Of a DNA stretch of 64,000 bases, positions 350 through 51,875 are shown one piece after another (positions within the stretch are counted from its first letter, which is position 1; each line of letters begins with the position of its first letter). The stretch is from the NCBI RefSeq assembly GCF_009914755.1, contig NC_060929.1; one strand, 5' to 3'. This stretch comes from the human T2T-CHM13v2.0 reference genome, Homo sapiens. The notes beneath the pieces were generated by a model, which saw nothing but the letters and a program-made list of their open reading frames with translations, searched no databases and had not been told where the DNA came from. The translations under genes and the position numbers were made by a program.

Positions 350-799
350 CTTGCCAGGCACTAGGGAAACCTCTGAGAAAGTCATGATGATGCAGGAAGC
401 ATAGGTGGCATATTGGGAGCTTTTTATTTCTAAGTTTCTTTTTGATATATGTAGACAACCATCTATAATCTCAGATATGCTATACATAACTTGTTTTTTT
501 CAAGACTTCGATTTTACATTAAATTCTTTCTTTAGAGAGCTCATTAAGAAATATAGAAGTTCCACTGAATGCCAACTATCTTGCTCTTTTAAAATTTCCT
601 TTAAGCTTTCATTAATTTGCTTTAGATTTGCATTCAAAAATGCAATGTTCTTAGAAATATTTTCGTCGACTCACTCAACCCATGTATTCAAATCTTTCAG
701 AGATAAATAGCTTATTTTATCTACAGGGAATACTCATTGACTTTGAGAAATTACTTTCTGCATATTTTATTTTTGCTGAGAAAATACCTCCATACTTAT
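350..799 (-). pseudogene. Pseudo-exon (3'-most seen): ISMEVFSQQK*NMQKVISQSQ*VFPVDKISYLSLKDLNTWVE*VDENISKNIAFLNANLKQINESLKEIL...
   Basis: Acceptor tttttacttttAG at 800-801; one frame of 143-150 codons with no frameshift and 4 stops (3 TGA, 1 TAA); donor uncertain (exon end 371 or 350). Confidence 0.7.
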
Positions 800-1064
800 C
801 TAAAAGTAAAAATCTTTAACTCTTCTAAGTATCTGAGTATGTTAATTAGCATTAAGGTTAGTAAAATATAAATTCGTCAGTGACATAAATGATTGTGATG
901 TAAATTAGTATGAGTATATTAGAATTCAGAGAATTGGGAACATATATATGGGCCCCTGTTTTCATACTGACCAATCTGTTATGTCTTGAGTATTTATAAT
1001 CAAATCAGCTGCTATGATAATGAGCTCTAAACATGAATTTTCAAGCCAAAATCAGACAGTTTCA

Positions 1065-1490
1065 GGCCTTGGATTTGATTTTACTCTTCTTACAAGCTGA
1101 TCAATTAGCCTATTACTGTTTCATGGATGCTGGCACTAGACATGAGATTTCAGGATCAGAAACAGGACTGTGTTACCCATGGCACAGCAAGCAGCATCAA
1201 CATTAGCATATTTGCATCGATTCCCCTTGCCCCCCAAGTCCCATGGGGGTGAGGGAGTACGTGCCAGACAGATGCCATTCATGCAGTGGATTTATACTGA
1301 GCTTTCGTAGCAAGCAGTAAGCAAGCCTGCTCTTTGTCCAAAAGGAGCTGTTACTTCATCTCTCCAGGTTATCAGCTACATAAACATAAATAAAAATGCC
1401 CTGGATAAAAGTGTTCAGGGCCTTGAAGCCTTGGCACACCAGCCAGATAGGTAAGACCACAAGAAGCCCAAGGGGAAGTGTCTCCCAACA
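1065..1490 (-). mobile_element. LTR40-like solo LTR (ERVL)
   Basis: Minus strand begins TGTTGGGAGAC and contains CCCCCATGGGACTTGGGGGGCAAGGGGAA and CCAGCATCCATGAAAC, matching the recalled LTR40 consensus. Confidence 0.75.
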
Positions 1491-3541
1491 GACAGATGCA
1501 GTGTACTGTGGCGGAAAGGGCAGAGTCTGTGACAGGGTTCTGGTTCTTGTAGCTCTTGCTAGCAGCCTTCCAGAGGTCTGTCTGAGATATCTCTAAGCAT
1601 TCTCACAGAGAAAATAGAGTTGCATGAAATGACAAAAAATGTCTACCCTTTCATCTCAAGAATAAGTATTAATGTCATACTCTTCTGTAAACCTTCCTTT
1701 AAAATAAAACCTGCAGCTTGCTTAGGGCTAAAACTTGAGCCACAGAGAATTTTCACATAACCAAGTAATATAAATACAATATCGCCTACAAGTGTTAAAT
1801 GGATTTTTGGAAGAGAAAATTCATCACTGTAATTGTTCAGTGAAGGATACCATTTATAATTTTAAGAACTAATATAGAAAATGTGAACACAATTGTAAGT
1901 GCATGACTAAGAAATGTTACCTCATTTTCTTTTCAATAAAAAACAAATCAAGTGACTGGACAAGATATGAGAATGTTGTGAGCATTTTAAAAATTATTTT
2001 AGAATGTTTATTGTTTTAAATGTTAGAAATAATTTATTTTTCATGAATGAAAAGCTTATTCTCTGAAGCATATTTTATAGATTTTTATTTTGATATTGAA
2101 ATAATTTCTGTGAAAATGTGGATTTGCTAAATAGTACTATGTTTAGATCAGTTTGATTGGTCAACACTTCTCAAAATAGGTTCAAGATCTCCTCTTTACC
2201 TGTTGAAAACATTTACTCTCTTGAAAGATCCAATAAAGATATTTTAAAAAGATACTTGGGAAGGGAGGACGTTAAATGATTTCAGTGCACACTTAGTTGC
2301 AAAACCGCAAAGCATGGTTCTGGAAAAATCAAGCCTGCTATCATTATTGATAAAATTTGGATTCCACACCAATAAGCCTTATTTTGGCTAACTGGAATGT
2401 AGAAATATTTAATTCCAGGTGCATAGGGATTTATTTATATTAAAATTGTCCAACAGCACAAGATGCTGTGTCACCGATAGCCTGTAGAGGCAGAAGTTTT
2501 AAAGGACTTTAGTACACAAAAAAACATAATGCAGGCAAACTTTAGCTACCAAGAGTTCTCTAGAATGAGTATATGGATTCATTTGTTTATCCTTTCAGTA
2601 CTGCATTATTGATTACCTACATAAGGGAAGCCCTCTGCTGGAGACAGTCTGGATAAGAGAGAGCTACTGTTTCTGAAGGAACTAAGTCTAATGAGAGAGA
2701 TAAAATAAAGGCCACCTAGGGTGGTTAGTGCAAAGATGAGGAACTGGACACAATTACGGAAAGTCAGATGACAAATTCTTCTCAGATAGATTAGGGCTTT
2801 TCAGACCAGAGCCTTTTCACTTTAGCTTTTTTTTTTTTTCTTTCGGTTTTGGTTTTGGTTCATCAGTTGAATGTGTAAAGTATTTCCTGGCCTTTTCTTT
2901 AACAGGATAGGAAATCTTCCTTCAAGTTGATCATCTCTTGAAGGAGCTTACAGTCTAATTATCTAAAAACAACTGTTCTACATACACGGTTTATGCAGCT
3001 CCTATGCACAGGTGAAGAGCATACAAGATGGGTAATAAAAGCAGCTTGGCATTGATCAAACACTTTACTATGAGCCAGGCACTTTGACTAGTGCTTGACT
3101 TATGTTATCTAATTTAATTCTCAGAACTTTTTCAGATAGTTCAGAACACAGAAGTTAAGTATCTAGAGTACCCGGCTAGGAGTTGCCATATGTGAACTGT
3201 TTTATGGGCTCTGCTACTAGCTGTGTGGCCTTAAGAACGACTGAGTATCAGCCATGAAGAAGGATGGCTTGTTAATACATGTCCCAGGGCAATGTCTAAA
3301 ATTTCTGTTGAAGGGTAATGATTTATGTACAGTCACTCTTGATTAAAGATAACTATGCTGGGGAGTTTCTAGTCAGGCCAAGTGACCTGGAGTCAATGTG
3401 CAGTAGGCATTGCTTAACCCAGAGCTCTCAAACTCAATTGGCCACGGTGCAAGGCAGATAATCCAAACAAATGAAATGAGACAGGTGGGGCCTGGCACAC
3501 TGGAAAGTAAGCATGTACATATTAAACAGGCAAGTTCTACT

Positions 3542-3557
3542 CAGCGCCACCTGGTTG
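3542..3557 (-). promoter_or_regulatory. Candidate CTCF site
   Basis: Minus strand CAACCAGGTGGCGCTG, one mismatch to CCACCAGGTGGCGCTG. Confidence 0.5.
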
Positions 3558-3734
3558 CTGCCAAAGGAAAATGCAGACCCAGTGGTTACAGAGACTCCAA
3601 ATCTTCTAAAGAAAATGACAATCCTGACTTTTAGATGTTGGTCTGTAGGCCATGAGACCAGTCTGAGGTGCAGCTCATCAACTGCAAGTGGTACTCTTCT
3701 CATTCTTCCTCATTCATAGTTTAGGAATCTTTGC

Positions 3735-3787
3735 TCCTTCCTTCCTACTTCCTTCCTTCCTTCCCTTCCTCCCTTCCTTCCTTCCTT
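3735..3787. repeat. (CTTC)n microsatellite derived from the Alu tail
   Basis: Imperfect cttc/ttcc tetramer run abutting the Alu 3' end. Confidence 0.9.
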
Positions 3788-4351: not shown

Positions 4352-4380
4352 ACTATTTCAATCTATGTAAGCACTCTCAG

Positions 4381-4950
4381 GCAGTGGTCTCAAGATTTGC
4401 TACCTATTAGAATCAGCTGAAGAGCTTTTAAAAATCCAAAACCCAGGTCATGTTCCCTGCCAATGAAATCAGAATCTCTATAGGTAGGACCTAGATATTG
4501 TTGATCTATTTTTAAAACTCCCCAGGTGATTCCAGTATGAAGTCAAGTTTGAAAAACAGCGCTCTCAGACCTTGCTACTCAGTGTGCACCTCAAAATGAC
4601 ACCAGCACCATCATGCCTGTGGCAAATGCAGAATCTTAAGCCCAATTTCAGTACTCCTGAGATGGGACCTGTAGTTAAACAAAATTCCCAGGTGGTTCCT
4701 ATGAAGGTAAATGTTTAGGAAGCATTGCCTAATAATTATCAAGTGACTCATGGAACCTCGCTTTTAAGCCTTTGGACAGTGATTATTAACCATAGCTACA
4801 TATTAAAATCACCAGAGAGTTTAAATGTACCATTACTGGGTCTAGCCAAGGAGATTCTGATTTAATTGATCTATGGTAAGTCCTGGATATTAATGTTTTT
4901 AAAAATCGTACCAACATGAGTCTAATCTGCCACCAGGGTTGAAAACAACT
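4381..4950. mobile_element. Three adjacent MER5A/MER5B-like hAT-Charlie MITEs (about 4381-4558, 4563-4728, 4775-4950)
   Basis: Recurrent MER5 motifs: cagtgg..ctcaa, ttagaatca, aaatgcaga, cccaggtgattc, gtttgaaaa. Confidence 0.7.
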
Positions 4951-7790: not shown

Positions 7791-7904
7791 CTTCTTTATC
7801 TTGTATTGGACCTGCTTTCTAGGTCATTTTCAAAGTGTGGAGGGGCCAATTTCTTTTTTTCTTCAAAAACAAATTATAAAACTCAGCATTCTCAAGATAG
7901 CTGA

Positions 7905-10160: not shown

Positions 10161-10169
10161 AATAAATAC

Positions 10170-16967: not shown

Positions 16968-18652
16968 CTTGACTTCTAATACTATAGATAAGCTTTGCTG
17001 CTTTGGAACTTGAAAAAAATTTTTAGCTACTCTGCTATTCATAGACATTTGTGTAATGGTTTCAGCTTTGGGCTGTGTGAATGGTGCTGCTACAGTCAAT
17101 CTAACAGATTTCATTTTGGTGAACATGTGCACACATTTCTTTTAGGTTTATAAGAGTGCAATTACTGTGTCATAGGTTGTAAATATTAAGAGCTCTAATA
17201 GAGACTACTAAACAGATTTCTGAAGTCATCATATCACTTTATATGCCTAGCAGCAATATATAAGAAGAATCAATCACTTTGAAAAGTTTTTACTTCTGGT
17301 AGCTCACTTCTGTAAATAGTATCTGTCTATCTTAAAAAGCTTTAAAATAATAAACTTGTTCTGTTCACTTACCCTGCACCCCAGCTTATCTTTCTTCACC
17401 TTCCTCAAAAAACTAATGGTTAAATTATGTTTGCTTGGTTATATTTGTAAATTAACAATCTTTTATGTCTTCTTGCTTTGTCAACTTAATAAGCAGTTTT
17501 CCTTCTCTCTCTGTTACATGTAAATACAAGTTATTCTCTATATTCGTTTGTTAATTTCCATTGCCTATATTTTTAAATCCCTTTTTTAAATTTTGAAATA
17601 ATGTTAGATTTACAGAAACACTGCAAAGATAGTACAGTTTTCCCTATTAACATATTATATAACCATGATACCTTTGTCAAAACTAAAAACCAACATTGGT
17701 ACATTACTGTCAACTGCAGACTTTATTGTATTTCACCAGGTTTTTCTGCTATGTACCCCTTCTGTTCTCTTCCAGGTTCCAATCCAGGATACTACAATTC
17801 ACTTAGCCACCGTATTTCCTGATTTTCCTCTGGTCTATGACAGTTTCTCAGTCTTTCCTTGTTTTCAATGACCTTAATGGTTTTCAGTCCCCCAGGGTTT
17901 CCACCCCCTAATCTACTGCATATAGTCACTTCCCACTGGGTGTGGGCTGGACATGTGAATGTGATGGGATAGCCTCCAGGAGCCACTCTCACGTTATTGG
18001 CTACTCTAACCTTAGGTCATTCTGGGCTTCTACTGGGAAGGCTGGCTTTTACTTCCACTTAGGTTCCCCCATGGTATTACTTTTTCATCAACATACTTCC
18101 ATGTACTTTCAGACTTTGAGAAACGTGTGAAAGACTCTGATCTCCCCACGTACATCCACACTTCTGAGTTTATTCATTTTTGTGTTCCCTTATTGCTTCA
18201 GGAAGGAGGAGGAGAGGTAAGCATATGTGCACATTTTAAAACTAGCAACAAAGAGCTCCCTTTCAAATCATAACTTGCCACTGCCAATTCCAGGCTAACT
18301 CGTTAGCCTCATGCCTTTGTAGTTCTTTTTCTGTTATACCCATCTATAGCCAATGTTCTTATATGTGTATGTTTTGCAGTGGTAGTAGTTACAGGACCAG
18401 GTTTTAAGCCTGGCTCTGGAATTATCTGATATATTGCTTTAGGGGAGTTGCTTAAAATGTGTGCCTCGGCCAGGACATAATTAAGATTATTACTGTTGTC
18501 TACTTCACAGAGTAATCTGAGAATGACTTCATGCATTTTCACTGCCATTGCATTTCTAAAACTGTCTTATGATTTTAAAATAAGCTTCTCTGTCATAAAA
18601 ACCGTAATCAGACACAGAAGAATGCCAGAAGGCAGAGGTAAACTGAGTTCAC

Positions 18653-37600: not shown

Positions 37601-40600
37601 TTGTTGATTCTAATTGTGTTTACTTGGATCTTCTTTCTCTTATTTATTAATCTAGCTAGCAAACTATTAATTTTTTCAAATAAACAATGCTTGGATTTGT
37701 TTTTCTTTTGAATGGGTTTTTGTGTCTCAGTCTCCTTCAGTTCAACTCCAATTTAGGTTATTTCTTGTCTTCTGCTGGCTTTGGAGTTGGTTTGCTCTTG
37801 GTTCTCTAGTTCTTTTAGTTGTGATGTTAGGTTGTTAAATTGAGATCTTTCTACCTTTCTGGTGTGAGAATTTAGTGCTATAAATTTCCCTTTTAACATT
37901 GCCTTAGCTCTGTCGCAGAGAGTGTGGTATGCTGTATCTTTGTTCTCATTACGTTCAGAGAACTTCTCTTGATTTCTGCCTTAATTTCATTATTTACCTA
38001 AATATCATTTAGGAGAATTTTATTCAATTTCCATGCAACTGTATGATTTTGGGCAAATGTTAGTCTTCATTTCTAATGTGATTGTGCTGTGGTCCAAAAA
38101 AGTGATTTTTTATGATTTCAGTTTTTTTGCATTTGCTGAAGAGTGTTTTATGCTTGATAAAGTGATTGATTTTTAGAGTAAGTTCCATGTGACAATGCGA
38201 AGAATGTATATTCTGTTGCTTTTAGGTGGAGAGTTCTGCAGATGTCTATCAGGTCCATTTGATCCATTGATGAGTTCAGATCCTGAATATCTTTGTTAAT
38301 TTTCTCCCTTGGTGACCTGCTTAATACTCTCAGTGAGGTGTTGAAGTCTCCCACTATTATTGTGTAGAAGTCTGAGTCTCTTTGAAGGTTTCCAAAAACT
38401 TGCTTTATGAATCTGAGTGCTCCTGTGTTGGCTGCATATATATTTAGGATAGTTAGGTCTTCTTGTTGAATTGAACCTTTTACCATTATGTAATGCCCTT
38501 CTTTGTCTTTTATCTTTGTTGGTCTGAAGGCTGTTTGTCTAAAATTAGGATTGCCATCTTTGCTTTTTTCTGTTTTCTGTTTGCTTGGTAGATTTTTCCC
38601 CATTGCTTTATTTTGAGCCTATGTGTGTCACTGCATGTGAGATGGGTCTCTTGAAGACAGCATACCTATGGGTCTTGGTTCTTTATCCACATTGCCACTC
38701 TGTGCCTTTTAATTGGGGGCATTTAGCCTGTTTACATTCAAGGTTAATATTGAATGCTAACAGTATCCTATCATCACAGTGTTAGCTGGTTATTAGGCAG
38801 ACTTGTTTATGTGGCTACTTTATACTGTCACTGGTCTATGTACTTCAGTGTGTTTTTGTAGTGGTTGCTGACAGTCTTCTTTTCCCCCATATTTAGTGCT
38901 GCTTTCAGGAGCACTTGTAAGGCAGATCTGGTGGTAATGCATTCACTCAGCATTTGCTTGTCTGAAAAGAGTCTTATTTCCCTTTCACTTATGAAGCTTA
39001 GTTTGGCTAGATATGAAATTCTAGGTTGGAACTTAAGAATGTTGAATATTGACTCCCAATCTCTTCTGGCTTGTAGGGTTTCTGCTGAGAGGTCTGCTTT
39101 AAATCAGTTGGTTTGATAGGCTTTCTTTTGTGGATGACCTGACGTTTCCTTTCTGTCCAGTGGCCTTTGATTTTATTAATTTATTTATTTTTGAGATGGA
39201 GTCTCACTCTATTGCACAGGCCGGGGTGCAATGGCATGATCTTGGGTCACTGCAACTTCTGCCCCTGGGTTCAGGCAATTCTTATGCCTCAGCCTCCTCA
39301 GTAGCTGGGATTAGAGGTGCATGCTACTGCACCTGGGTAATTTTTATATTTTTAGTAGAGATGGGATTTCCCCATGTTGGCCAGACTGGTCTTGAACTCC
39401 TGGCCTCAAATGATCCACCTGCCTAGGCCTCCCAAAGTGCAGGGATTACAGGCGTGAGCCACTGTACCTGGCTTAATATTTTTTCTTTTATTTTGGCCTT
39501 GAAGAATCTGATTATGTGTCTTGGGGATGATCTTCTTATGAAGTATCTTACTTGGGTTCTCTGCATTTCCTGAATTTGAATGTTAGCCTCTCTAGCTAGG
39601 CTGGGGACGTTCTCATGGATTATATCCTGAAATAAGTTTCCCAAATTGCTTACACTGTCTTTCAGGGACACCAATGTGTCATAGAATTGGTCTCTTTACA
39701 TAATTCTGCATTTCTCAGAGGTTTTGTTCATTCGTTTTCATTACTTTTTCTCTATTCTTGTCTGATTTCAGAAAGCCTTCAAGCTCTGAGATTCTTTCCT
39801 CAGCTTAGTCTATTCTGCTATTAATACCTGTGATTGCATTATGAAATTCTTGTAGTGTGTTTTTCAGCTCTATCATATTGGTTACCATTTTTTTATACTG
39901 GCTATTTTGTCTGTCAGCTCCTGCAATGTTTTATTGTGATTCTTAGCTTCATTGAATTGGGTTTCAATGTACTCTATCTCAATGATCTTCTTTCCTATCC
40001 ATATTCTGAAATCTATTTCTGTCATTTCAACCATCTGAGCCTGGTTCAGAACCCTTGCTGGAGATGTGATGCAATTTTTTGGAGTAAAGATGGTAGTCTG
40101 GCTTTTTGAGTTGTTAGGGTTCTTGTGCTTGTTCTTTTACATCTTTGTAGGCTGATGTTCCTTCAGTCTTAGAAGTTGCTGACCTTTGGATTTTTTTCTT
40201 TTATCATATTTGGTGCCCCGTTATCCAATCAAACTTTAAGGTATAAGGCAGATTCAGCCAACTGCCTTCATTTCTGAAAGATTTTAGGAGGTCAAGGCTT
40301 GGTTCCCAACATCTGGACTGTGTGCCCTAACTCTGGACTTGTGCCCCAACTTTGTTCTCTGGTTTCTTGAGGTTAGGAATCCACTGGGCTGGGTGGGCCA
40401 GGGTGCTCTCAGACTACTGCTTACTACACTCTAATAGCTGGTGTCAGCCAAGCATTATATAGTGTAGTGACAGCAGGATCCATCTTTGTTTGCATGTGCC
40501 AGTGGCAGCACATGGAGGTGCATATTTGTTGGCTGTGACAGGGTTCTGGAGGATGTTTGGTTGCCTGCCTCTATGCCGGCATTCATCACAATAAGGGAGG

Positions 40601-41710
40601 CAGCACAGCTGGGGGTGGGGATCTTCTGCTGGTGACTGTGTGTACAGTTGCACTGGTGGATGATGTTGGCATGGGGATGGGGCACTGGCAGGTGCTAGAC
40701 TGGTTGTATTCTTTGTGCACTGCAGGCAGAGGTGGTTGCTCAAGGCAGAGGAGGGGCTGCTGTTCTTTTTGTCTAGTTTCACTCCAGCAGCAGTGTTAGC
40801 ACAAGGGTGGGGCACTAGCAGGGGCAGGGATGCTGGCTTTGTGCCCACCAAGGCTCTGACTGCAATGGTGGTTGGCATGGGCATGGTGTGGGGAGTGGAC
40901 TGCACTCCTGCTGCAGCAGTGGCAGGGCAGGGTGCACGTACATCCGTGTGCTGGTGGGGCAAGGAAGGCAAAACCAGTCTGGAAACACATTATGGCAAAG
41001 CAATGTAGGGGGTTGCTGCAGGCCTGGGGGAAGCTGCAGTGTGGGGAGGGAGCAGGCAGGCTGGTGCCTGGCCAAGGGGGCTGTCCCAGTGGAGCTCTCT
41101 GCCAGTCACAGTCTGCCAGTGCAGGAACTATGATATGGGCCCCTATGGCACTCAAGGCTGCCCTGCAAGCAGGCACAGCCAGGCTAGGGCCCTGAGAGAG
41201 GCCAGGAGGATAGGGGGTACTCAGTTCAGGCCAGCCCTATCTGATGTGCAAGACTGACCTGCAGAGTTCAGGTCTGACAGGTGTTCTAGGGCTAGCGTCT
41301 CCTATGGGAGCAAGTTCAGCCTAGGGGAATGGGCGTCCCTGTCCATGCTCCACTACAGACGCTCCTGCACCAAACCCCCTGGGCTCCACATCAGCTGGTT
41401 TGCTGCCCCTACCACTTCTTTAAGCAGCTCTCCCTGTCAACTTGAGTGTTCATGGTGGTCAAGGCCTCTTTCCAGGATTCCAGAGGCCTATGGCAAGAGT
41501 GGGTTACTCCTTGCCAGTTAAACTCACGTATTTCCCTGAAGCTTTTGGGGGCCAGGAATGAGTCCTGGTGTGTGGTAGCCCTGTGCAGGACTCCCAGCTT
41601 CTGTGTCTTCCCTCTGGACACCTGTTAGGAGTGTGCCAGTCATCTCGGCCCCTGGGTGGCAGCTATTCCACCTGGCTGTGTCTAGTGGGCCATCTTTCCC
41701 TCTCCCCTAC
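34605..41710 (-). mobile_element. Full-length older L1 (L1PA13-16/L1PB-type) with a long GC-rich 5'UTR
   Basis: ORF1, EN (QQEDLTILNIYA), RT (YHDQVGFIP), 3'UTR; GC-rich 5' region at about 40200-41710. Confidence 0.9.
39175..39473 (-). mobile_element. Old Alu inserted in L1 ORF1
   Basis: Diverged Alu dimer with a (ttta)n tail. Confidence 0.9.
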
Positions 41711-43536
41711 TGTATCTTCTTTGCAGATATTTCAGGACTTGGCTTCAATCTGTTTCAGGGTAAATTAATGTAGGCCTTAATCTAGGGCTTGGTCCTTACT
41801 CCCAAAATTGGCTTTTGGTCGGAGCTGAATGTGTATAGTATTAACGTGTTAAGGAGGTGTGCCTAAGGTCTTTCTACTGCTGAGCCATACTTCTAGAGGT
41901 TCCTAGAACTTCTTGACCTCTAGTATCTCTGTTACATTTTCTACCCTGTGGAAGCTACTCTCTGGTCAGCCTTTTGTAGTGTTGCTCTGCATGTGCATAG
42001 TACATCCTTGACCAAGAATTCGACCTCTACACAGATGGCTGTGTTTTACGTATTCTGCTTTCTATGCTTCTCGGAACTCTGATGTTTGCCTCTTCAATTC
42101 AGCAGAACTACCTCTGAACCAGAAAGCCCAAACTTTGGATTCTAGTTTATTGCATTGCAGTTAGAAAATTTTCTTCAGACAGAGCCAGCATAATGGCAGG
42201 GCTTACCTCATGAGTTTCTTTTCTGTCAAAGACTGTAGTCCTGAGCTACCAGTTATCTAAGCACTATCTGTCATCCAGCCATAACGGTTTTATGCCTCCG
42301 AACAGTCATCTCACATATGTTTTCCACTTTCATCATTATTTATAGGTGAAAGGCTGGTCTGGTACTAGTTACATAGTCACAGCTAGCAGCAGAATTTCCT
42401 CCTGCAGTGAGGTTCGTGTTACTGTGTATGTGTGTTTTTAAGCTAAATTTATTTAACTTAAAGGAATCTGTTTTATTTGGAAATTATATCTTTCCTACTT
42501 CTTATATATTATTTATTTCTTTAAATATTAAAGATAGCAGATTATAGTGTTGGCTGTGCTTGTAAGTACATGTATGTTTTAACACTTTTTCTTGGCAGTA
42601 TAAAACACTAAAGCAAAATGATGTGGACTCTAAACCTTTGCTACTCTGCTAAGTAATAAGTAGTTTTGAGTTAACCAGACCTTGGTCGTACCTAGTAGAA
42701 CAATAGCCTATACAGGATGGTTATGCCTTAGTTTATTGGGACTTATTTTCCTGGACAGAACCTCCTTTTATTTCTAGAATGCCTTTGAAGTTAGGCTAAG
42801 AAATTTATTTTTTTCTGAAATATACAAGAGACTTAGGATTTCTCTAAAGAATCTCCAAGATGGAGCTTAGAGTCCTAAATCAAATTTACTATTACTGTAT
42901 CATAATAATAAAAGATAGGAAAACTGATTTAGAAGATGAAATCCAGCCATAAGATATTTAGGTTAGATTCTGCTTATTTATAGTCAAAGTAGTATGTATC
43001 AGGGATTTAATTTTTAGAAAGGAATTTTCTGGTTAAATCTCAAGGTGAATAGTGATGTAGCACAAACACTACTTTCTTTGTAGTATTCATATAATTATAT
43101 TGAAGTTAACCACTTGCAATTTTCTTAGCAATATGTTGAATATAATCAGGTATTAAAATATTAAAAAATAGCCAGGAAGGTTACATTTTAGTTCATTATT
43201 CATTTCATCAACTCTGCCTCTCTAATATCACTCAAATGCATTCCATCCTCTCTACCTTCACTACCACTATCTCTGTCCAGGCTTTTACAATTGCTTTTTG
43301 GTTTACTGTCGTTGGCCTCCTAGTCTCTGCTCTGGACATCTATTTCATTCTCCATATAGCAGCTATATAGAGTAGAACAGCATTTTAAAAATGCAGATCT
43401 CATCACTTGGAGTGTGAAATCCTTTCTAAGTAAGAATTATTTCTAGATGAAAGAAACAAAGGAGAGAGGAGGAAGAAATGTCCTTGAAAGGGAACAAAAA
43501 AGCATAATATTCTGAACAGTTGGGTGCTGTATTTAC

Positions 43537-43851
43537 TCCTTCTTGAACTCTCAATTCCAAAGATTGCAGATTTCCTTCTAGAAGTGACTTTTTTAGTCAT
43601 ATTTCCACATTTTTCTCTACTTCAAAGCATCTTGCTCCCACCTTATTTACTCAGTGTCTTCCCTACTGACTGTCACCTTTAGATTAACAATTTCCTGTTC
43701 AGTTGCATTTATTTTCTTTCTGAGACATTGCCTTTTGGATTGCTTCCTCCTCCCTAACTGTTCAAGCAACTGTCTGAATACATCTTTTCACTACACTCAG
43801 CCTGGGTTTCCAAAACTAGGTTTCTTGGAAGTTGAAAAAATACAAAATTTC
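43537..43851 (-). pseudogene. Pseudo-exon, coiled-coil-like: NFVFFQLPRNLVLETQAECSE/KDVFRQLLEQLGRRKQSKRQCLRKKINATEQEIVNLK...EFKK
   Basis: Strong acceptor tttttttttcctgccactatgcAG and donor GGA|gtaaat; probable 1-nt frameshift and several stops. Confidence 0.65.
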
Positions 43852-44349
43852 CTGCATAGTGGCAGGAAAAAAAAATTAACTAGGTAATTGGGTATTTTTC
43901 CCCCTTATTCATTATATAAGTATTTATTGTGCACTTAATATGTGTGATTTCTTTTGTGTTGTATATGCAACAACAGACAAAACTGCTATTTCTAGAATAC
44001 TTAGTCTTTTGGAAGATACAGACAATTACAATAGTGTGAGAAGTTGTATAATAGATTAGGGTGTCATTAAAGTACCTAGTTGAAACACCTATCTCAGTCT
44101 ACTAGGGGAATTTCTTAGGAGAATAAAGAATGAGTAGGGATTAGCAAGGAAGAAGTTGGGGTGGTGGCTTGGGGGACAGTGTTCAGGAAAAGAAATAGAC
44201 ATTTGCAAACCTAAATGGAAGGAAGCATCATGGTAAATTGGATAGATGAGAGTTGCTAAGAGAGGCAACAGGAAAGGTAAGTGGGGGCTAGTTTGTGAAG
44301 GTCTTTGTCAGCCATGTAAGGGAATTGGGAATTTGGATTTTACCCTAAT

Positions 44350-47033
44350 GTAGTGGTTCTTTGACTTTAATGTGCATTCAAACTCACTAGGAATATTTTT
44401 ACAATGCAGATTAGATTCTAATTCAGGAGGTTTGGAATGAAGCTTAATATTCTGCTTTTTTTTTTCTGTTTGCTGTTTTAAAACTGCTAGTTCAGAAAGT
44501 TTTACATGTCCTATTTCCTAATTTGTTCATTGGTATATACCAGAGTTTTGTTAGCTCAAATGAAAAATCTTCTTTCCCATCATGACATATGCATGAATCA
44601 AGTCTTCCTTGTAGGTGGAACTCAGCAATTTGTCTCCTGTCTATCTACTGGGTATTTCTTAAATTTCCTCAGTGTCTAGGCCAAATCTTTGCTTATTTAT
44701 TAGCTTTCCAGGCACCTTGCTTTTAGACCTCTCACAATTACATTGCAGTGATTTGGGAGAGACTGTCTCAGACTGCAAGCCCTCCTGTTTGGCCATGGTG
44801 AGTTCCTTCTGGAGGCTGCCATGAGTGATTTCACAGCAGTCCTTCACCAGTTCATCTCTTAAACCATATAGATACTCTCATATGCACTATTATTCAACTT
44901 GCTCTTCTTTCTGGCATGCCTGATGATGTATCAGGGAGGGAGAGAGTTCTTGGGACACTTTAGTTTATCACCCTGCTAATCTCTGGATAAAGACTACCCT
45001 AGTGAAGAATCACAGAACTCTGTGCATTAACTTCTTCAAAATGGCATACTCTGTCATCTTCAGCATTCCCTTCCACATCACAGTCTTCTAAATCCTCAGG
45101 AAACAACATGTTCAGTGTAGGACTTTTCCACCCATATATTGTCTTTTGAATTGGGGAGATGACAAAAGCTTCCAGCTTCTTGGTTTTCACAGTCTTTTAA
45201 ATCTTTGTAAAGTTTATGAAATTCTCATCCTTGACTTCCTCAATTTCTTCTTTCATGATCATTTCTTCTTCCTCTATACTGTGTTTCCCACTCTTGATTG
45301 CCTTTTGAACTGAGCCCTTTTTACTATTCTGTGTCTGCCCTGTTACAGGGCTGTCTAGCATTGAATCTTCTTCAACCACAGTGATCACTGAGATGCTATT
45401 ATGAGATGGTCCTTCTCAGAGGCACTCATATCACATTGGATCACTTTTACAACTTTATTGGCCTGAGCCAGCTGGGAAGGCAAGGGACAGATGTTCTCAG
45501 GGCAGATAACACCATTTGCCATTATTTCTTTATTATCTATGGCATGCTTTTCATGTGCATCATACTCTTTATCCACATGACACATTTCAACTACATGGGG
45601 CTCCTCATCTTCACAGAGTTCCTCATCTTCATCACCCTTTTCAGATTTGCATAAACACAAGGCTCTATTAGATGTGGCTTCTCAGTCCAGCTCATATCAC
45701 ATTCAATCACTTTAGTCCAATAAAGTCAACTTTTTTGGACTGCACCAGCTGGATTGGTGAGGGACAGGGTTTCTCTGGGGAGCCTGGCTTTCTCCCATCA
45801 CTGAGGTGCTTCTGGGCATTGAATGGTAGGCTCAGGTCGCTTCCATGCTGAAGGGGAGTTACCTCTCCTGCTGGAACTGCTTGACATTCATAGACTTGCA
45901 CACTTTTAACTTCATGCTCTTTTGGGCTTTTTACCAACTGAACCTCATCCCTGGCTTTTTTACTGAGAGGATTTGGGGGGCAGCCTTATATCTATTTTTT
46001 TTCTTAACCATGTTCATTTCTATGCCAGCACCTGACTTCAAGATCTCTTTGTCTTCTTCAACTTTAAGACACTGCCTTAAACCATAGTATCTCTTTGCTC
46101 ATATTTATTTATAATGTTATCTTCATCCTCAGAAGGGTTTTAGAGCATACTCTTGCTTTTACAGTAACTCTGTGAAAGCAAAGGTGTGCTCTGAAATCCT
46201 CCTGAGGGTTTGTGCTGTGCCACTTTCCCTTGCAGGTCTTTACCGTAGGCCACATCATACAAATTGATGTTTTCCTTAAAAGTCCCATAATTTTACTGTA
46301 GGGGAATCTATTCTTTTATTCACACTTTCTCCTTCTCAGAGGTGCATTGCTTCTGAAAGGTGTGTTTCTATATGAAGGGTTATTAGAAGGGCTCTTACCA
46401 TGTCATCTCCTCTTATGAGTAACATAAAATAAAGCCTATCTCTTTTGTCAGGAATGTTGTCAGCTTCTGTGTAAATAGCAGTAGTGAGGAAACTGGCCAT
46501 ACCAGCTATGTTATGGCTATTGACTTCTGCAGGGATGTTTTGTTTTTCACATGTGTTTTCAGCCTGCTTAAAATCAGATTGAGTCTTTTTGATTTTCTTT
46601 CTTTCTCCAAAGGCATTTTAGTGCTGGAACTGTGCTGTATGATAAGACACTGGGAACATGGTTAGGTGTGGTAGGAAATGGAGATTGTGGCACTAGAAAG
46701 GCAGAATACTTTCTGAGTGCAAATAAATATAGAACACAGACTTAAATTTATTAAACCTGCCCCAGTAACATGGAGATGATCATAGATGGGATTCTGGTAC
46801 CACAGACCCAGGAAAGGATGGGCCATAGCCTGTATTTAATAGGGTCTGGGGTTGCTGCCTACAATATTGTGCACTGCTTTTTGAATAGTAGTTCATTTTC
46901 TAGTTCATTCCTGCATGACGAAAACCTACAGCTCCTCCCCCATCCCCTCCACTCCACCCATATTCTGCATTTCTAATAAGCTCCTAGATGAGGCTGACAC
47001 TGCCTGTCCATGGACCACACTTTGAATAGCAAA
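44350..47033. mobile_element. MER5A split in two (44350-44455 and 46960-47033) by the retrocopy, itself within L2 relics
   Basis: Left half ends ...aatattctgc; right half resumes atattctgcatttctaataagctcc...ggaccacactttgaatagc. Confidence 0.8.
44456..46959 (-). pseudogene. Processed pseudogene/retrocopy (2.5 kb): Glu/Lys-rich protein with a C-terminal SETD2-type SRI-like domain
   Basis: Poly(A) remnant 44456-44465; TSD atattctgc (44447-44455 and 46960-46968); G-rich 5' end; chain of minus-strand ORF fragments ending ITHGSLQKEL...LQCN...QRFGLDTEEI*. Confidence 0.8.
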
Positions 47034-47492
47034 CTCCTAAGGAAGATAGCAAGGACTTTAAGGATTTCAATTGGAGCAGAAAATATTATAAACATATATC
47101 TAGCATTCTAGAAAGAATGTTGTGGTTTTAGAATAGAAGATTAACTGGAGAGGGGCAAGATTGGAAGCAGGAAAAAATTTAGCTGACTATTTTAGTAAAC
47201 TTGGTTAGATATGACAGAGATTTCAGCTACTAGATTGCACTGGGCATGGAGAAAACTGAACAGATTCAAATATACTTGGAAGTAAAACTTAGAATCTTAG
47301 AGAACTTTGGAAGCGAGAGCAAGAACAGAAGAATAGAGACAGATTCTTAGGTATCTGGCTTGGTCAAATTTAATGCTACTCAAGGTGAGACAGCAGATCT
47401 GTGGAACGATTTAAAAATAGGCATTATATAATCAGATGTTATTTTCTTCACTCAATTAGAAATACCTATGTATCATCTCTGAATTCAGATAC

Positions 47493-47931
47493 CTGTCATA
47501 TAATCAGCAGAGAAATGAAAAAAGATACTTTTCCCTTCTTTGTACAAATGGAGAGATTTTTTTTCTTGCATTGTAGTACTTTGGACCAAATAATTAAAGT
47601 AACTCCCTTGAGTTTGATGTGATGCACACCCAGGGAACTACTCTCATCCAGGACTCCCAGGGCACCGCTCCCACCCAGATAGGGAAGCAGTTTGATGTTC
47701 CGAGTGAACACAGCCTGGTTTCAAAGTATATTGTACTCTATTGCCACTTTACTTAGAGCAGTTCAGTGGAGTCCTTCAGTCAACTGGAAAAAATAATCAG
47801 TTTACCTGCCCTGTGAAACTCTCAGTTTCAGCTTTGCTATTTTATCATGGTTTACATTCTCTCATAGGTAAAATCTAGTTAGACTAAAGGACATCTTTAA
47901 AATTGTACAACAGTGGCCAGAGATGTCTAGC
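47493..47931 (-). pseudogene. Pseudo-exon: LDISGHCCTILKMSFSLTRFYL*ENVNHDKIAKLKLRVSQGR*TDYFFQLTEGLH*TALSKVAIEYNIL*NQAVFTRNIKLLPYLGG...
   Basis: Acceptor catcatctctttataAG and donor CAG|gtatct; one frame over more than 120 codons with 4 stops (3 TGA). Confidence 0.7.
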
Positions 47932-48211
47932 CTTATAAAGAGATGATGAGGATTTTTAATGACCATGTGAAGGCATATCTATGAAACAAAAAAATTTTCA
48001 GCACTAAGTGGCATAGTCAATTCCAGCCTAACTGCCTCAGACCTGAGCAGCCTGTTCCTGAGGGCCTGCCTATTTCCCACATGGAAGGCTTAGCTCTCCA
48101 TGTGCTATTAAGTGCTGGTGAGTCTGAGGACAAAGGAGTGGGAAGTAGAATTCACAGAGTTTGTGTATTCTCGTCCTTTATTTTTACTGAGTTGCAGATG
48201 GTTTCACTCAC

Positions 48212-48532
48212 CAGAAGGATCTTTTATGTTGCCAGCATTGGCTTTACAAGTTAAAGATGGGATAGAGAATAGGTCAGCAAGACACCTTAATTGCTTCATC
48301 TTTTTCCTCAGGTCAGCCTGTTCTGAATCAGACTCCATTCCCTTCTAACATAACTCATTTACGCACCCAACACTCTCCCAAGTAAGGCTAATCTTTTACT
48401 GGTTTTTCTTCTTACAACTGTGGGACACTGGATTTCAGCATCTGGAGGCTGTTAACTATTGGAATTATAGCCAGGAATATCTTACAGTTTCTAGTGGTTG
48501 TTATCTTTCTGCTCTGACATTGTTCAATTAGA
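48212..48532 (-). pseudogene. Pseudo-exon: LIEQCQSRK...GMESDSEQADLRKKMKQLRCLADLF...
   Basis: Consensus donor CTG|gtgagt; weak GAG acceptor; at least one frameshift. Confidence 0.55.
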
Positions 48533-48659
48533 CTCAGAGTGGATAAAGGATTATGAGAAAACATGTAGTGTGAAAATGCCTTAATTCTTATGTTCCCAAA
48601 TCACTGATGTTGGCAATTGTTTTTCCCTTTATTTTAATTTTTTTTAATAACTCTTTCAC

Positions 48660-48732
48660 CATACAGGGATGCTAGATTGAAAGTGCAACATTGCTGAGTC
48701 AATAAAACAGTTTTTTTTTCCAATTATCTCAT
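48660..48732 (-). pseudogene. Candidate small pseudo-exon: EIIGKKNCFIDSAMLHFQSSIPV
   Basis: Acceptor aattttcacAG and donor ATG|gtgaaa; exit phase 2 matches the 48532 exon. Confidence 0.45.
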
Positions 48733-49447
48733 CTGTGAAAATTCAGTTATCATAAATGTATTTGTCTTCTATAGATTAATTTTATGGATATTCAAAAAAT
48801 GTTTTTATTTGGAAAGAGTATGCCCAGAATGGAAAGTTCTTAGACAATATATAGTGATTGGATTCTGCTACAATACATGCATTTTTCTCACAAAGAACTG
48901 AATTTTGGAAGAGTTCTTTGATCAAACTCATAGAGCCAACTAAGGGTAGAGCCAAGACAAATTGTTTAAGTCAGAATTTTGTAACTTTCCTTATTATGAG
49001 AAAAACTTGGGGTTCTCATTAAAAAGAACTTTTTTTTTTTTCTGACTCCACGTCCACAGTGAGAGAATGTTCAGGAGAGAAAATCAGAAATCTACATTTG
49101 AAAAGTATCCCACTAACAGGTAGGTGATTCTTATGTGCACGCAAGTTTCAGGATTAATGGTTGATTTAAAAATCAGTAAAATGCATTCCAAGATATATAC
49201 ATTCTAGAAAGCAGACAAAATTAATTACAATTTCTTGAGAGGAGATATAAATGTTTGGACACTTAATCTGGCAAGATTAATTTGGCTACTTCATAAAGGT
49301 GTCTAAGCAGATACAATAAGCACAGTAGGAATGACAATTAGATAATGCAGTGGGTAAGTGTAGTTGTAATAAATTTTATTTCTTGTCTTATTTATTTATA
49401 TTTGCTATTTTGGAATTTACTATAATGTGTATTGTTGGAAAACTTAC

Positions 49448-49521
49448 CAGCAGGTGGTAGCACTGTTTAACAAATATACCCCAGATCACAAAGCAAGCCA
49501 TTGTGAATAATTTATTGGCTA
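49448..49521 (-). pseudogene. Candidate small pseudo-exon (74 bp)
   Basis: Consensus donor CTG|gtaagt and acceptor ctgctctAG; frame ambiguous. Confidence 0.5.
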
Positions 49522-49969
49522 CTAGAGCAGTAACATTCAAATATGTCAGAATATTGGATTGGGATTCAGAAAGCCTGACTCCTGGTCCCAGCTGTATTAC
49601 TTACTGGCCCAATCACTTTGGAAAGATAATTTAATCTTAGTGTTTAGATAACATTGTAAGTAAAATTGGGATAATAACTCTCTTGGCTTTTGTTGTTTAG
49701 GGTAGAAAAAGAAAATGATTTTGAAATCATGGGAGGGGTAGAATGCTAGGTAAATGCAAGCTATCATCTCTCCTTTTTCCCCCGCTACGTTTCTTGTTAT
49801 TCAGGCATATATTTTAAAATGTGACCCTATTAGCAGTAAAGGTGGCCATCACAGTGGAACTTAAAAGGACAGCACTCATAAATGTCAAATGACTTCCTGT
49901 TGCTCATGTGTTCAACTAATTTTTGACTTTTTTTTCAGTTTTGTTTTTTTCCCATGTATTCTAAGATAC

Positions 49970-50052
49970 CAAAACTTCGCATTTGTGGGGTCTGAGGAAA
50001 AGTAGTTCCAGCCTCTGAATGCATTTTCATACGCAAACATTGCTTGTCTAAC
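49970..50052 (-). pseudogene. Candidate small pseudo-exon: VRQAMFAYENAFRGWNYFSSDPTNAKF
   Basis: Acceptor gtgcacAG and donor TTG|gtatct; two frames are open. Confidence 0.45.
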
Positions 50053-50191
50053 CTGTGCACATTCGTGAATTAAAGAGGAAAACTCCAAGAGAACCCAAAT
50101 GGTAACTTCAAGGTGTTTTTACAGAAAAAAATAGCATCTATGTGCAGTAGCACATTTAAAATACAAAGAGCATAGTGAACTATTAGTTTAC

Positions 50192-50267
50192 CTTTACTGA
50201 ATCTTTGTTGTGTACAGAGAAGTATACAACCACTTAGAAGATTCAAAGATATAGAACCCAGGGGCTC
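50192..50267 (-). pseudogene. Candidate small pseudo-exon (76 bp)
   Basis: Acceptor tttttcatttttAG and donor AAG|gtaaac. Confidence 0.55.
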
Positions 50268-50309
50268 CTAAAAATGAAAAACTTTTCATTCTTTGCTGTA
50301 TTTTCATAT

Positions 50310-51370
50310 TTCATTCAGTAGATATTTATTGATAATGTTCAATACTCCAGGGACTTTGCTAGGTGCTGGGGATATAGGCTATGTAAGACATGCATAATTC
50401 TCAAAGTTGCAATTTTTCAGATCATCTATAAAAGCAAACAGATGTGGTATATAAGGCTAAAAATAAGAACCACGAATATCACTGGGTGACTATTTCAATT
50501 AAAGCCAACCTGGAGAAAGTTAACATGTGAGATGTGAATGGAAAGAAGAGAGATTCTAGTGGAGGATATGGTACCCACAGAGTGAGATGTATGATGTGGA
50601 GACAGTACAGCTTAATAGTTAAGAGTATGGGCTTTGGAGTCAAAATGATCTGGAATAAAGTAGTAACTCTGCTACTTGTAAATTGCATAATCTTTGGCAA
50701 GTTACTCTGATTTTTTTGTTTCTTAGTTTCCTCATCTGTAAAATGGATATGATAGTAGTTTCTATTTTATAGTTATTCTAAGAACTAAATCTGACAATTA
50801 GTGCACAGTAAATTCTAAATGTGGAAAAGCAAACAAATTTTCTTGAAACATAAGATATATAGAGAAGTTTTTATAAGGCACTGAATGTTAAACACGGAGG
50901 TTTGAATTTATTATAGCAGAAAATGGGAAGTATAGATGTTTACATAGAATAGAGGTGTCAGTGAAAAGATATTTAAAGGTGTTATAGCAGTTGTATAAAG
51001 GGTGTTTTAGAACAGACGGTGGATAAGGGTACGAAAAGGAGGGTCATCTTAAGAGTACAGATATGAGGAAATGTGAGCTTATACTTGGGTAAGGGATTTG
51101 GAAAGACTTGATGATGAATTGGATAGGAGATCAAGAGGGAGACAGGATTAAAAATTTATTCCAATAATGTGAGCCTGGGGAATTAAAGGGGATGGTTGTA
51201 TCTTTGGCAAAAATAAGAAGCAGTGTTTTATATGTGTGAAGAAAGCAAATATATTTATTCTCATGAGAAAGAGCCAGTAAAAGACACAAAGCACCAGGCA
51301 GAAGAGTCCAAAATCAAGACTGGATATTTCAGTTGAGAATAATCTGCCGAGTTTCAACATGGTCATTGAA
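50310..51370. mobile_element. L2 relics with an embedded MIR (about 50600-50815)
   Basis: cattcagtagatatttattg (L2 3' end); agtttcctcatctgtaaaatgg (MIR core). Confidence 0.7.
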
Positions 51371-51492
51371 ACCAGCTGCTATTGCGTGTTTGAAGGTAAT
51401 AGGGGAAAAATGGGAAAAAAAATCACATAAGTATATTCCAAGAAAGAATATCCTTGGGGCTGACAGAACATTTGAGAGAGTGATAAACTTAC

Positions 51493-51591
51493 AAGCTTAA
51501 TTCTGTTTTCATGAACTTGGAAGAGCAACTTCCTCTTGCTGTGCAGGGTTTTTCCCACATTCTTAAAGTCCCATCCTCCTTTAACAATGTC
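51493..51591 (-). pseudogene. Pseudo-exon (99 bp): DIVKGGWDFKNVGKTLHSKRKLLFQVHENRIKL (an alternative frame is also open)
   Basis: Acceptor ttcattcatttcaacacAG and donor CTT|gtaagt. Confidence 0.6.
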
Positions 51592-51679
51592 CTGTGTTGA
51601 AATGAATGAAAATTTCTGATGCTAACACATAACTAATTTCTGGCTGAGGTCACGTATAGTAATGTAAAATACCAGGTAC

Positions 51680-51875
51680 CTCATATTCTATTAAAGTAGG
51701 TTTGTCACGTAAAGAGAACAGAACTTCTTTCAGGAATAAGTTGGCCACCCATGAAACATGCGAAAACATGGGACAATAAAATTCCTGTCAGAGTCTCTGG
51801 GAAGATTTCCCTGAGATTCCATTCCCACAATTGTGTCAGGAAACTACTTCAATATTGTAATGATATGTCACACTT
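51680..51875 (-). pseudogene. Pseudo-exon (5'-most seen): ...FLTQLWEWNLREIFPETLTGILLSH/VSWVANLFLKEVLFSLRDKPTLIEYE
   Basis: Donor GAG|gtacct; frame restored by removing a 10-bp tandem duplication at 51751-51770; acceptor weak. Confidence 0.55.

What the first reader, a model, noticed from the sequence alone, without database searches (positions are those of the whole stretch)
350..51875. Hidden multi-exon fossil gene on the minus strand, largely invisible to the ORF track
Seen: about 15 non-repeat segments with AG/GT boundaries, totalling about 3.1 kb. The largest keep one frame for 69-150 codons with only 1-4 stops. Junctions 43537->21617 (GA|A across a 22-kb L1-filled intron), 21410->18737, 10170->9902 and 48660->48532 join in frame. 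The product reads as helical/coiled-coil. Inference: a spliced gene inactivated in this lineage (unitary or duplicated pseudogene) that may be intact in other vertebrates. I do not recognise the protein. Frames of the small 5' exons are ambiguous, and some junctions need an assumed frameshift.
Basis: partly seen in the sequence, partly recalled or inferred. Interest (0 to 1): 0.85.

Follow-up and report, generated by a model that had tools for sequence, protein, structure and literature searches.

The report
Dead human bucky ball gene copy

Summary
Window 44447-46974 (minus strand) is the human bucky ball (BUC/Velo1) pseudogene. An exhaustive HMMER search found mammalian Buc proteins of 417-920 aa (E 7e-18 to 1e-7). 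One 723-aa protein maps colinearly, residues 12-708, onto 46859-44671, with nothing significant elsewhere in the window. Window 46780-46896 matches 117 of 117 bases of the 'Human' buc pseudogene printed by Skugor et al. 2016, so the core finding is already known.

The copy is contiguous with no introns. It has at least 12 stops and 6 frame changes, an A10 run at its 3' end, and a candidate 15-bp target-site duplication. Three more copies exist in the genome: chrX full length inside an old L1, and chr15 and chr12 5'-truncated. The chr5, chrX and chr15 copies share one nonsense codon.

They show no Buc or other protein homology and no strand-specific ORF excess. Still open is whether chr5 is a dead-on-arrival retrocopy (my preferred reading) or the lineage's own BUC locus.

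The parts
46960..46974 (-). Candidate 5' target-site duplication (AGAAATGCAGAATAT)
   Evidence: It matches 13 of 15 bases with 44447-44461. A 15-mer with at most 2 mismatches turned up in 34 of 1500 random window pairs of the same geometry. Suggestive only.
46897..46959 (-). 5' leader (UTR-like) of the BUC copy
   Evidence: Homology to the chrX copy is reliable only from about 46926. Upstream of that point it is weak.
44623..46896 (-). Disabled BUC (bucky ball/Velo1) coding sequence, contiguous and without introns
   Evidence: - Identity: phmmer hits P0004-P0008, E 6.7e-18 to 1e-7.
- Colinearity: tblastn places P0005 residues 12-708 of 723 at 46859-44671 in at least 3 frames.
- Published sequence: 46780-46896 is a 117 of 117 base match to the published human buc pseudogene start.
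- Damage: 12 stop positions inside the HSPs to P0005 and at least 6 frame changes.
- The 3' limit of about 44623 is extrapolated from the last HSP.
46438..46859 (-). Remnant of the N-terminal BUVE region
   Evidence: Three HSPs to P0005 residues 12-149 at 36-54% identity. One example is YLFALRKYSAFLVPQSPFPTTPNHVP against YSVVLSEYPGFLVPQSPLPITLNRRP. The name BUVE comes from PMC6219760 and PMC5080839.
45400..45800 (-). Two copies of the family's internal repeat unit (PSP..LAQ.NKV..IQCDMS)
   Evidence: The second unit, CPENICPLPSQLAQANKVVKVIQCDMS at 45504-45424, aligns to P0005 377-403 and P0007 337-364. The chrX copy lacks about 270 bp here. The 98-aa ORF 45385-45681 lies in this unit.
45197..45199 (-). 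TAA nonsense codon shared with the chrX and chr15 copies (Lys538 in P0005)
   Evidence: Of 33 stop positions in P0005 coordinates, only this one is shared by all three copies. The DNA reads AAGATTTAAAAGACTGT in all three. The intact proteins read AKIKKTVK at this place.
44466..44622 (-). 3' UTR-like tail
   Evidence: It aligns with the chrX and chr15 copies up to their AGTAAATAAATG (AATAAA) motif. The window reads AGCAAACAG at that place.
44456..44465 (-). A10 run at the 3' end of the homology
   Evidence: Read directly from the sequence. The flanks of the three copies are unrelated beyond this point.
44447..44461 (-). Candidate 3' target-site duplication (AAAAAAGCAGAATAT)
   Evidence: It abuts the A-run.

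Best explanation
Window 44447-46974 (minus strand) is the human pseudogene of bucky ball (BUC, Velo1 in Xenopus). According to the papers read, BUC encodes the intrinsically disordered protein that nucleates the Balbiani body and germ plasm in fish and frog oocytes.

Shown:
- It is one contiguous, intron-free copy made of a leader, the whole coding sequence, a 3' UTR-like tail and an A-run.
- It is riddled with stops and frameshifts.
- It is identical to the published 'primate buc pseudogene'.
- It is not part of any 51-kb spliced gene.

Inferred, and my preferred mechanism:
- It is a processed pseudogene. A BUC mRNA was reverse-transcribed and inserted by L1 machinery between ISOC1 and ADAMTS19 in an early placental or early primate ancestor.
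- At least three sister copies were made the same way: chrX (full length, inside an L1), chr15 and chr12 (both 5'-truncated).
- The source transcript already carried a nonsense codon at Lys538.
- The source locus, expected beside AVL9/LSM5/KBTBD2 on chr7, is no longer detectable.

Sub-odds:
- Identity as BUC, in a single block: about 0.97.
- Block made by retroposition at some time: about 0.8.
- Dead-on-arrival retrocopy rather than the lineage's own BUC locus: about 0.55. This last figure is the confidence given below.
For: Identity:
- 11 proteins reached E of 0.001 or better. Five long ones are P0004-P0008, 417-920 aa, 33-44% identical.
- P0007 is near-identical to 'Cow_BucL1' of PMC5080839 Additional file 1.
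- the hits are colinear.
- exact 117-base match to the paper's human row.

Single block:
- The gaps between HSPs are at most about 150 bp, so there are no introns.
- Zebrafish buc has introns (PMC6049948 introduction).

Retroposition in the family:
- Own-genome searches find copies on C23, C15 and C12 at 65-76% identity.
- These share one 3' end. Their lengths are about 2.3 kb, 0.95 kb and 0.35-0.44 kb.
- The chrX copy lies between L1 endonuclease-like and L1 ORF2-like sequence in the same orientation.
- The chrX and chr15 copies have AATAAA followed by an A-rich stretch.

Retroposition of the chr5 copy itself:
- It has an A10 run and a flanking 13 of 15 base direct repeat.
- AVL9 is on C7, not C5, whereas buc is reported next to kbtbd2/avl9/lsm5 (PMC5080839).
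- The chr5 branch is longer than the chrX and chr15 branches: 0.25 against 0.18 and 0.175 K2P, computed by me from the pairwise distances. That is unexpected for a constrained parent.

Shared stop.
Against: - No other BUC locus was found in the genome. None was found in 200 kb around LSM5 and the 5' part of AVL9 either. A parent lost later than the retrocopies should be easier to see than they are, so this favours chr5 being the lineage's own locus.
- The long Buc proteins in the library may be plain ORF calls on contiguous DNA. P0004 and P0007 start at an internal Met, and P0004 and P0009 carry out-of-frame stretches. If so, intact mammalian BUC is itself intron-free, and lack of introns says nothing about chr5.
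- The duplication is only 13 of 15 bases, and comparable matches occur by chance in 2.3% of controls.
- The A-run sits directly at the place where the other copies have AATAAA. That is too close for a normal cleavage site.
- An unbroken A10 run and a well-kept duplication are unexpected after roughly 100 million years.
- The branch-length difference is only about 2 standard errors (my estimate).
- The chr5 copy is no less similar to intact proteins than the chrX copy: sum bits 164-241 against 158-237.
Confidence: 0.55

Rival explanations
1. The identity is the same (BUC), but the chr5 block is the human lineage's own BUC locus, a unitary pseudogene. It may descend from an old functional retrogene that replaced the intron-bearing ancestral gene in early mammals. 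After it acquired the Lys538 stop it was still transcribed in the germ line and gave rise to the chrX, chr15 and chr12 retrocopies.
For: - It is the only full-length autosomal copy.
- No other locus was found.
- It needs one locus fewer than the preferred reading to explain the shared stop.
- The published paper treats it as 'the single primate buc'.
- Library proteins suggest intact BUC may be intron-free.
- The duplication and A-run would also fit an ancient functional retrogene.
Against: - The paper reports buc next to kbtbd2/avl9/lsm5 in 'most tetrapods', and AVL9 is on C7.
- The chr5 branch is longer than those of its supposed offspring.
- The chr5 copy has more frame changes than the chrX copy: 4-6 HSPs against 2-4 per protein.
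Confidence: 0.38
2. One reading: a spliced gene of about 15 exons spread over 350-51875 on the minus strand, joined at 48660>48532, 43537>21617, 21410>18737 and 10170>9902.
For: - GT/AG is present at all 4 named junctions.
- The segments at 21200-21700 and 18500-18900 are unique in the genome.
- The 18.6-18.8 kb segment is conserved in other species' DNA.
Against:
- The block has its own 3' end.
- No Pfam hit for 10 ORF pieces, or for read-through frames of 40000-57200.
- The only database relatives of the 21.3-21.6 kb ORF are 91-97% identical short ORFs on contigs of at most 2.7 kb. These are most likely primate DNA.
- At 18.55-18.81 kb, the other-species ORF calls P0015 and P0016 keep an 18-residue core, but the frame differs from human on both sides. 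That is the pattern of a conserved non-coding element.
- There is no strand-specific ORF excess outside the block.
Confidence: 0.03
3. There is no gene remnant at all, only chance ORFs on an A-rich strand.
For: ORFs of 90-110 aa are common in this window on both strands: 28 on the plus strand and 42 on the minus strand, many of them in L1.
Against: Searches give significant colinear homology and an exact match to a published pseudogene.
Confidence: 0.005

Closest known systems
The primate buc pseudogene of Skugor, Tveiten, Johnsen & Andersen 2016 (BMC Evol Biol 16:232, PMC5080839; passages and Additional files 1-3 read)
   Same: The 'Human' row of their Figure S2, with alignment gaps removed, equals window 46780-46896 at 117 of 117 bases. 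Their premature stop after about 20 residues is the RPY* seen.
   Different: - They give no coordinates and call it 'the single primate buc'.
- They place buc in a conserved block with kbtbd2/avl9/lsm5.
- The main text contains no word beginning with 'exon', 'intron' or 'retro'.
- Here the copy lies on chr5 between ISOC1 and ADAMTS19 and has no introns.
- It has three sister copies (chrX, chr15, chr12) and shares a nonsense codon with two of them.
Intact mammalian Buc proteins (library proteins P0005 723 aa, P0006 920 aa, P0007 598 aa, which is close to cow BucL1)
   Same: - Colinear from the N-terminal BUVE region to the C-terminal CNCER.K.KVP motif.
- 35-42% identity within HSPs.
- The same internal PSP..LAQ..IQCD repeat.
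   Different: - The window copy has 12 stop positions and at least 6 frame changes.
- The intact proteins are themselves only 40-56% identical to each other.
- The species of the library proteins are not given.
Zebrafish Buc / Xenopus Velo1, germ-plasm and Balbiani-body organisers
   Same: The family assignment comes through the mammalian orthologues and the papers' alignments.
   Different: No fish or frog sequence was compared here. Function is taken from paper passages. The human copy cannot make the protein.
L1-mediated processed pseudogenes
   Same: - No introns.
- 5'-truncated sister copies sharing one 3' end.
- AATAAA plus an A-rich tail in the chrX and chr15 copies.
- The chrX copy is inserted in an L1.
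- A candidate 15-bp direct repeat and an A-run at chr5.
   Different: - The parent locus was not found.
- The intron positions of the parent are not known.
- The duplication is not statistically secure.

Membership tests
BUC / Velo1 (bucky ball) gene family | Significant, colinear sequence similarity to vertebrate Buc proteins along the whole length | tested here: met
   - E 6.7e-18, 2.0e-17, 6.9e-17, 2.6e-11 and 1.0e-7 to P0004-P0008.
- P0005 residues 12-708 of 723 map in order to 46859-44671.
BUC / Velo1 (bucky ball) gene family | Conserved N-terminal BUVE region | tested here: met
   HSPs to P0005 residues 12-149 at 36-54% identity. The region is present as a remnant broken by 2 stops and 2 frame changes.
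BUC / Velo1 (bucky ball) gene family | Position in the conserved block next to kbtbd2, avl9 and lsm5 (PMC5080839) | tested here: not met
   The window is on C5. The Avl9 domain (PF09794) hits lie on C7:32682440-32712815. No Buc match was found in C7:32560001-32760000 (best E 0.9). The remainder of the interval, from the AVL9 3' end to KBTBD2, was not examined.
BUC / Velo1 (bucky ball) gene family | Open reading frame able to give the protein | tested here: not met
   There are 12 stop positions inside HSPs to P0005 and at least 6 frame changes. The longest open stretch is 98 codons.
Published human buc pseudogene | Sequence identity with the printed human sequence | tested here: met
   117 of 117 bases at 46780-46896, minus strand.
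Processed (retroposed) pseudogene | Lacks the introns of the parent gene | tested here: inconclusive
   The copy has no introns, and zebrafish buc has introns. The exon structure of intact mammalian BUC could not be examined.
Processed (retroposed) pseudogene | Poly(A) tract at the 3' end | tested here: inconclusive
   An A10 run at 44456-44465 ends the homology. It lies where the sister copies have AATAAA, which is too close for a normal cleavage site.
Processed (retroposed) pseudogene | Flanking target-site duplication | tested here: inconclusive
   13 of 15 bases match between 46960-46974 and 44447-44461. Chance matches of this quality appeared in 34 of 1500 controls.
Processed (retroposed) pseudogene | Sister copies with the hallmarks of L1-mediated insertion | tested here: met
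   The chr15 copy (about 0.95 kb) and the chr12 copy (about 0.35-0.44 kb) are 5'-truncated and share the 3' end. The chrX copy interrupts an L1.
   All Buc-matching sequence is contiguous. Every hit outside the block has E of 0.095 or more.

The most novel reading that the evidence does not exclude
The sequence cited in the literature as 'the single primate buc pseudogene' may not be the orthologue of fish, bird and mammal BUC. It would instead be one of at least four L1-made retrocopies (chr5, chrX, chr15, chr12) of a BUC transcript that already carried a nonsense codon at Lys538.

That would mean BUC was already broken in the human lineage when the copies were made. By their 0.18-0.25 substitutions per site, this was around or before the primate-rodent split. 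It would also mean the true locus beside AVL9/KBTBD2 has since vanished. On this reading human oocytes have built Balbiani bodies without BUC for far longer than 'loss in primates' implies.
Probability: 0.45. Interest if true: 0.5.

Novelty: already known. Interest (0 to 1): 0.3.

Why it matters
- BUC/Velo1 is the only vertebrate gene reported as required for Balbiani-body formation (PMC6049948 introduction).
- Reviews disagree on its human status. [quoted passage not shown] Another paper calls it a pseudogene (PMC5080839).
- The window settles the human state. The copy is heavily disabled, and it is absent from the RefSeq gene table given with the finding.
- The details that I did not find in print bear on when and how the germ-plasm organiser was lost in the lineage leading to humans. 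These are the chr5 position outside the reported synteny block, the lack of introns, the three sister copies and the shared nonsense codon. They are modest additions to a known story.

Tried and rejected
Searches that gave nothing useful:
- Pfam on ORF pieces, on read-through frames and on the Buc proteins themselves: no family. No Pfam model matched any Buc protein.
- PDB sequence search with the 98-aa ORF: nothing.
- Rfam over the whole window: nothing.
- Word-index protein search with the 138-aa C-terminal piece against longer proteins: none of 247 candidates scored.
- Own-genome protein searches with three window pieces found only the chrX and chr15 copies and no intact paralogue.

Ideas considered and dropped:
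- The block as an L1 part or other interspersed repeat. Dropped.
- The 270 bp absent from the chrX copy as an intron kept in chr5. Rejected, because it is one unit of the family's internal repeat.
- The sequence upstream of the chrX copy as an upstream BUC exon matching window 56390-57048. Rejected, because both are old L1 endonuclease remnants and the window's old L1 runs on into RT-like text.
- Similarity to intact proteins as a way to separate 'orthologue' from 'retrocopy'. It did not separate them.

Not available or not completed:
- One paper was not held.
As a result, C7:32.76-33.16 Mb was not examined.


Full report
**Observation.** The minus strand also holds runs of 65-98 open codons separated by single stops or frame changes. 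These cluster at 44659-46617. In the block 44357-46919 the minus strand has 7 ORFs of at least 60 aa and 3 of at least 90 aa. Two hundred dinucleotide-preserving shuffles averaged 2.3 and 0.22; 1 of 200 reached 7, and 0 of 200 reached 3. In the other unique regions tested, the minus strand is not richer in long ORFs than the plus strand. In 17100-22300 the plus strand has 12 and 2 such ORFs and the minus strand 7 and 2. In 41300-44356 the plus strand has 7 and 1 and the minus strand 5 and 0. So the only coding-like signal is in the block.

**First leads.** Pfam, PDB and own-genome protein searches with single ORFs gave nothing. A DNA search of the window's own genome then showed the block is not unique. 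Copies lie on C23 (chrX) 140619781-140622123, on C15 46486864-46487786 and on C12 115261364-115261704, at 65-76% identity.
- The chrX copy is full length (about 2.3 kb).
- The chr15 copy holds only the last 0.95 kb or so, and the chr12 copy the last 0.35-0.44 kb. All share one 3' end.
- In the chrX and chr15 copies that end reads AGTAAATAAATG followed by an A-rich stretch.
- The chrX copy sits between L1 endonuclease-like sequence upstream and L1 ORF2-like sequence downstream, in the same orientation. Text such as NAIPIK appears; compare the window's own L1 ORFs.

This is the pattern of L1-mediated retroposition of one RNA.

**Identity.** I read frame 0 of 44400-46950 (minus strand) through with X at stops and scored it with phmmer against 1.84 billion representative proteins. 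Eleven reached E of 0.001 or better.
- Four are short ORFs 79-100% identical to the window.
- Five are long proteins: P0004 (417 aa, E 6.7e-18), P0005 (723 aa, 2.0e-17), P0006 (920 aa, 6.9e-17), P0007 (598 aa, 2.6e-11) and P0008 (435 aa, 1.0e-7).
- Two, P0009 and P0010, are C-terminal fragments.

Their N-termini (…ARPFFYVHAMGQQPY…) reminded me of the BUVE motif of bucky ball. That was a recollection, which I then tested.
- A paper search led to Skugor et al. 2016 (PMC5080839). Its Additional file 1 prints cow and dog Buc proteins, and P0007 is near-identical to their 'Cow_BucL1'.
- Its Additional file 2 prints the start of the 'Human' buc pseudogene. With gap marks removed, that row matches window 46780-46896 (minus strand) at 117 of 117 bases.

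The block is therefore the published human BUC pseudogene.

**Anatomy.** A local tblastn of the Buc proteins against the whole window places P0005 residues 12-708 of 723 in order on 46859-44671. All hits are on the minus strand, in three frames, with gaps of at most about 150 bp between HSPs.
- Of the 15 HSPs listed for P0005 at E up to 10, 8 lie in the block. The 7 outside have E from 0.23 to 9.4.
- Over the five proteins printed, the best hit outside the block has E 0.095.
- The start codon of the paper's alignment is at 46896-46894.
- The last HSP ends 15 residues before the C-terminus, which puts the ancestral stop near 44623.
- Inside the HSPs to P0005 there are 12 stop positions in the chr5 copy and at least 6 frame changes.
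- The family's internal repeat (PSP..LAQ.NKV..IQCD) is present twice in the window. It is present once in the chrX copy, which explains the 270 bp or so 'extra' in the window.
- The homology among copies ends at an A10 run, 44456-44465.
- A 15-mer just upstream of the leader (46960-46974) matches 13 of 15 bases with the 15-mer that begins in the A-run (44447-44461). Matches of that quality occurred in 34 of 1500 random window pairs of the same geometry. I call this a candidate target-site duplication.

The whole protein is accounted for in one contiguous block with its own 3' end. No protein is left to be encoded at 43537, 21617-21410, 18737, 10170/9902 or 48660/48532.
- These pieces have no Pfam hit.
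- The 110-aa ORF at 21278-21607 has only 91-97% identical short relatives on contigs of at most 2.7 kb. These are most likely primate DNA.
- The DNA at 21200-21700 and at 18500-18900 is unique in the genome.
- The ORF at 18570-18872 has more distant relatives (P0015, P0016). They keep an 18-residue core, LTSENDEEFSRCVDGTLE, but the reading frame differs from human both upstream and downstream of it. That is the signature of a conserved non-coding element, not an exon.
That is the rate expected by chance (my inference).

**How the chr5 copy arose.** Two readings remain, and I cannot separate them with the tools at hand.

Evidence for a dead-on-arrival processed pseudogene:
- The copy has no introns, whereas zebrafish buc has introns (PMC6049948 introduction).
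- It has the A-run and the candidate duplication.
- Buc is reported next to kbtbd2/avl9/lsm5 from shark to 'most tetrapods' (PMC5080839). AVL9 is on C7 in this genome, and the window is on C5.
- Over about 830 shared sites the K2P distances are 0.433 (chr5-chrX), 0.425 (chr5-chr15) and 0.358 (chrX-chr15). By my arithmetic these give branches of 0.25, 0.18 and 0.175. A constrained parent should not have the longest branch.

Evidence for chr5 being the lineage's own BUC locus:
- Genome-wide searches with P0005 (strict first look) and P0008 find only the chr5, chrX and chr15 copies.
- The 200 kb at C7:32560001-32760000 around LSM5 and the 5' part of AVL9 hold no Buc match. The best E was 0.9.
- Several library proteins look like plain ORF calls on contiguous DNA. 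If so, intact mammalian BUC may itself be intron-free.

The remaining 400 kb towards KBTBD2 could not be fetched.

**A shared lesion.** Of 33 stop positions in P0005 coordinates (12 in chr5, 16 in chrX, 7 in chr15), exactly one is shared by all three copies. It is a TAA where intact proteins have Lys538, in AKIKKTVK. By a rough calculation of my own, three independent hits on one codon within the 190 or so shared codons have a probability of about 0.004. The RNA that gave rise to these copies therefore probably already carried this stop. Either the parent was a transcribed pseudogene, or chr5 is the parent.

The branch lengths of 0.18-0.25 substitutions per site suggest an age of the order of 80-110 million years. 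This uses a neutral rate recalled from memory, not computed here. It would place the inactivation earlier than 'loss in primates'.

**Comparison with what is known.**
- The pseudogene itself is in print (2016), so the core finding is not new.
- I did not find in print the chr5 position, the lack of introns, the chrX/chr15/chr12 copies or the shared stop.
- The searches behind that statement were made, and the term look-ups in PMC5080839.
- In PMC5080839, 'isoc1', 'adamts19' and 'chromosome 5' occur 0 times, and no word begins with 'retro', 'exon' or 'intron'.
- Panel A of the paper's Additional file 1 is an image that I could not see. It may show the cow and dog loci and so bear on the synteny question.

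**Verdict.** It is a single intron-free block, it is already described, and it is most likely retro-derived. The 51-kb multi-exon model is not supported.

Noticed in passing
window 18550-18812: A conserved, apparently non-coding element, unique in the human genome. ORF calls from other species' DNA (P0015, P0016) keep an identical 18-residue core, but with different frames on both sides. It straddles the 3' end (18702) of exon 1 of the plus-strand lncRNA LOC102723654 listed in the hub's table.
   Followed up: partly
L002 3282-5624 (C23:140619781-140622123): A full-length BUC retrocopy on chrX, inserted into an old L1 between its endonuclease-like and ORF2-like parts. It has 16 stop positions against P0005 and fewer frame changes than the chr5 copy. 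It is not mentioned in the paper, which speaks of a single primate buc.
   Followed up: partly
L003 4365-5287 (C15:46486864-46487786) and L004 about 4365-4705 (C12:115261364-115261704): Two 5'-truncated BUC retrocopies that share the 3' end of the family.
   Followed up: partly
window 53500-57073 (minus strand): An old, heavily decayed L1 with endonuclease-like and RT-like text. It lies just downstream of the younger near full-length L1 at 57753-63336. Pfam did not recognise it.
   Followed up: partly
window 40444-41236: A GC-rich island (GC 0.52 in 40001-42000) with overlapping ORFs of 96-181 aa on both strands. It coincides with the RefSeq enhancer 40987-41486 in the hub's table.
   Followed up: no
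library proteins P0001-P0003, P0011-P0014: The large protein libraries contain short 'proteins' 79-100% identical to window ORFs, on contigs of a few kb. These are evidently ORF calls on primate DNA in public assemblies. They can mimic homologues if only E-values are read.
   Followed up: partly
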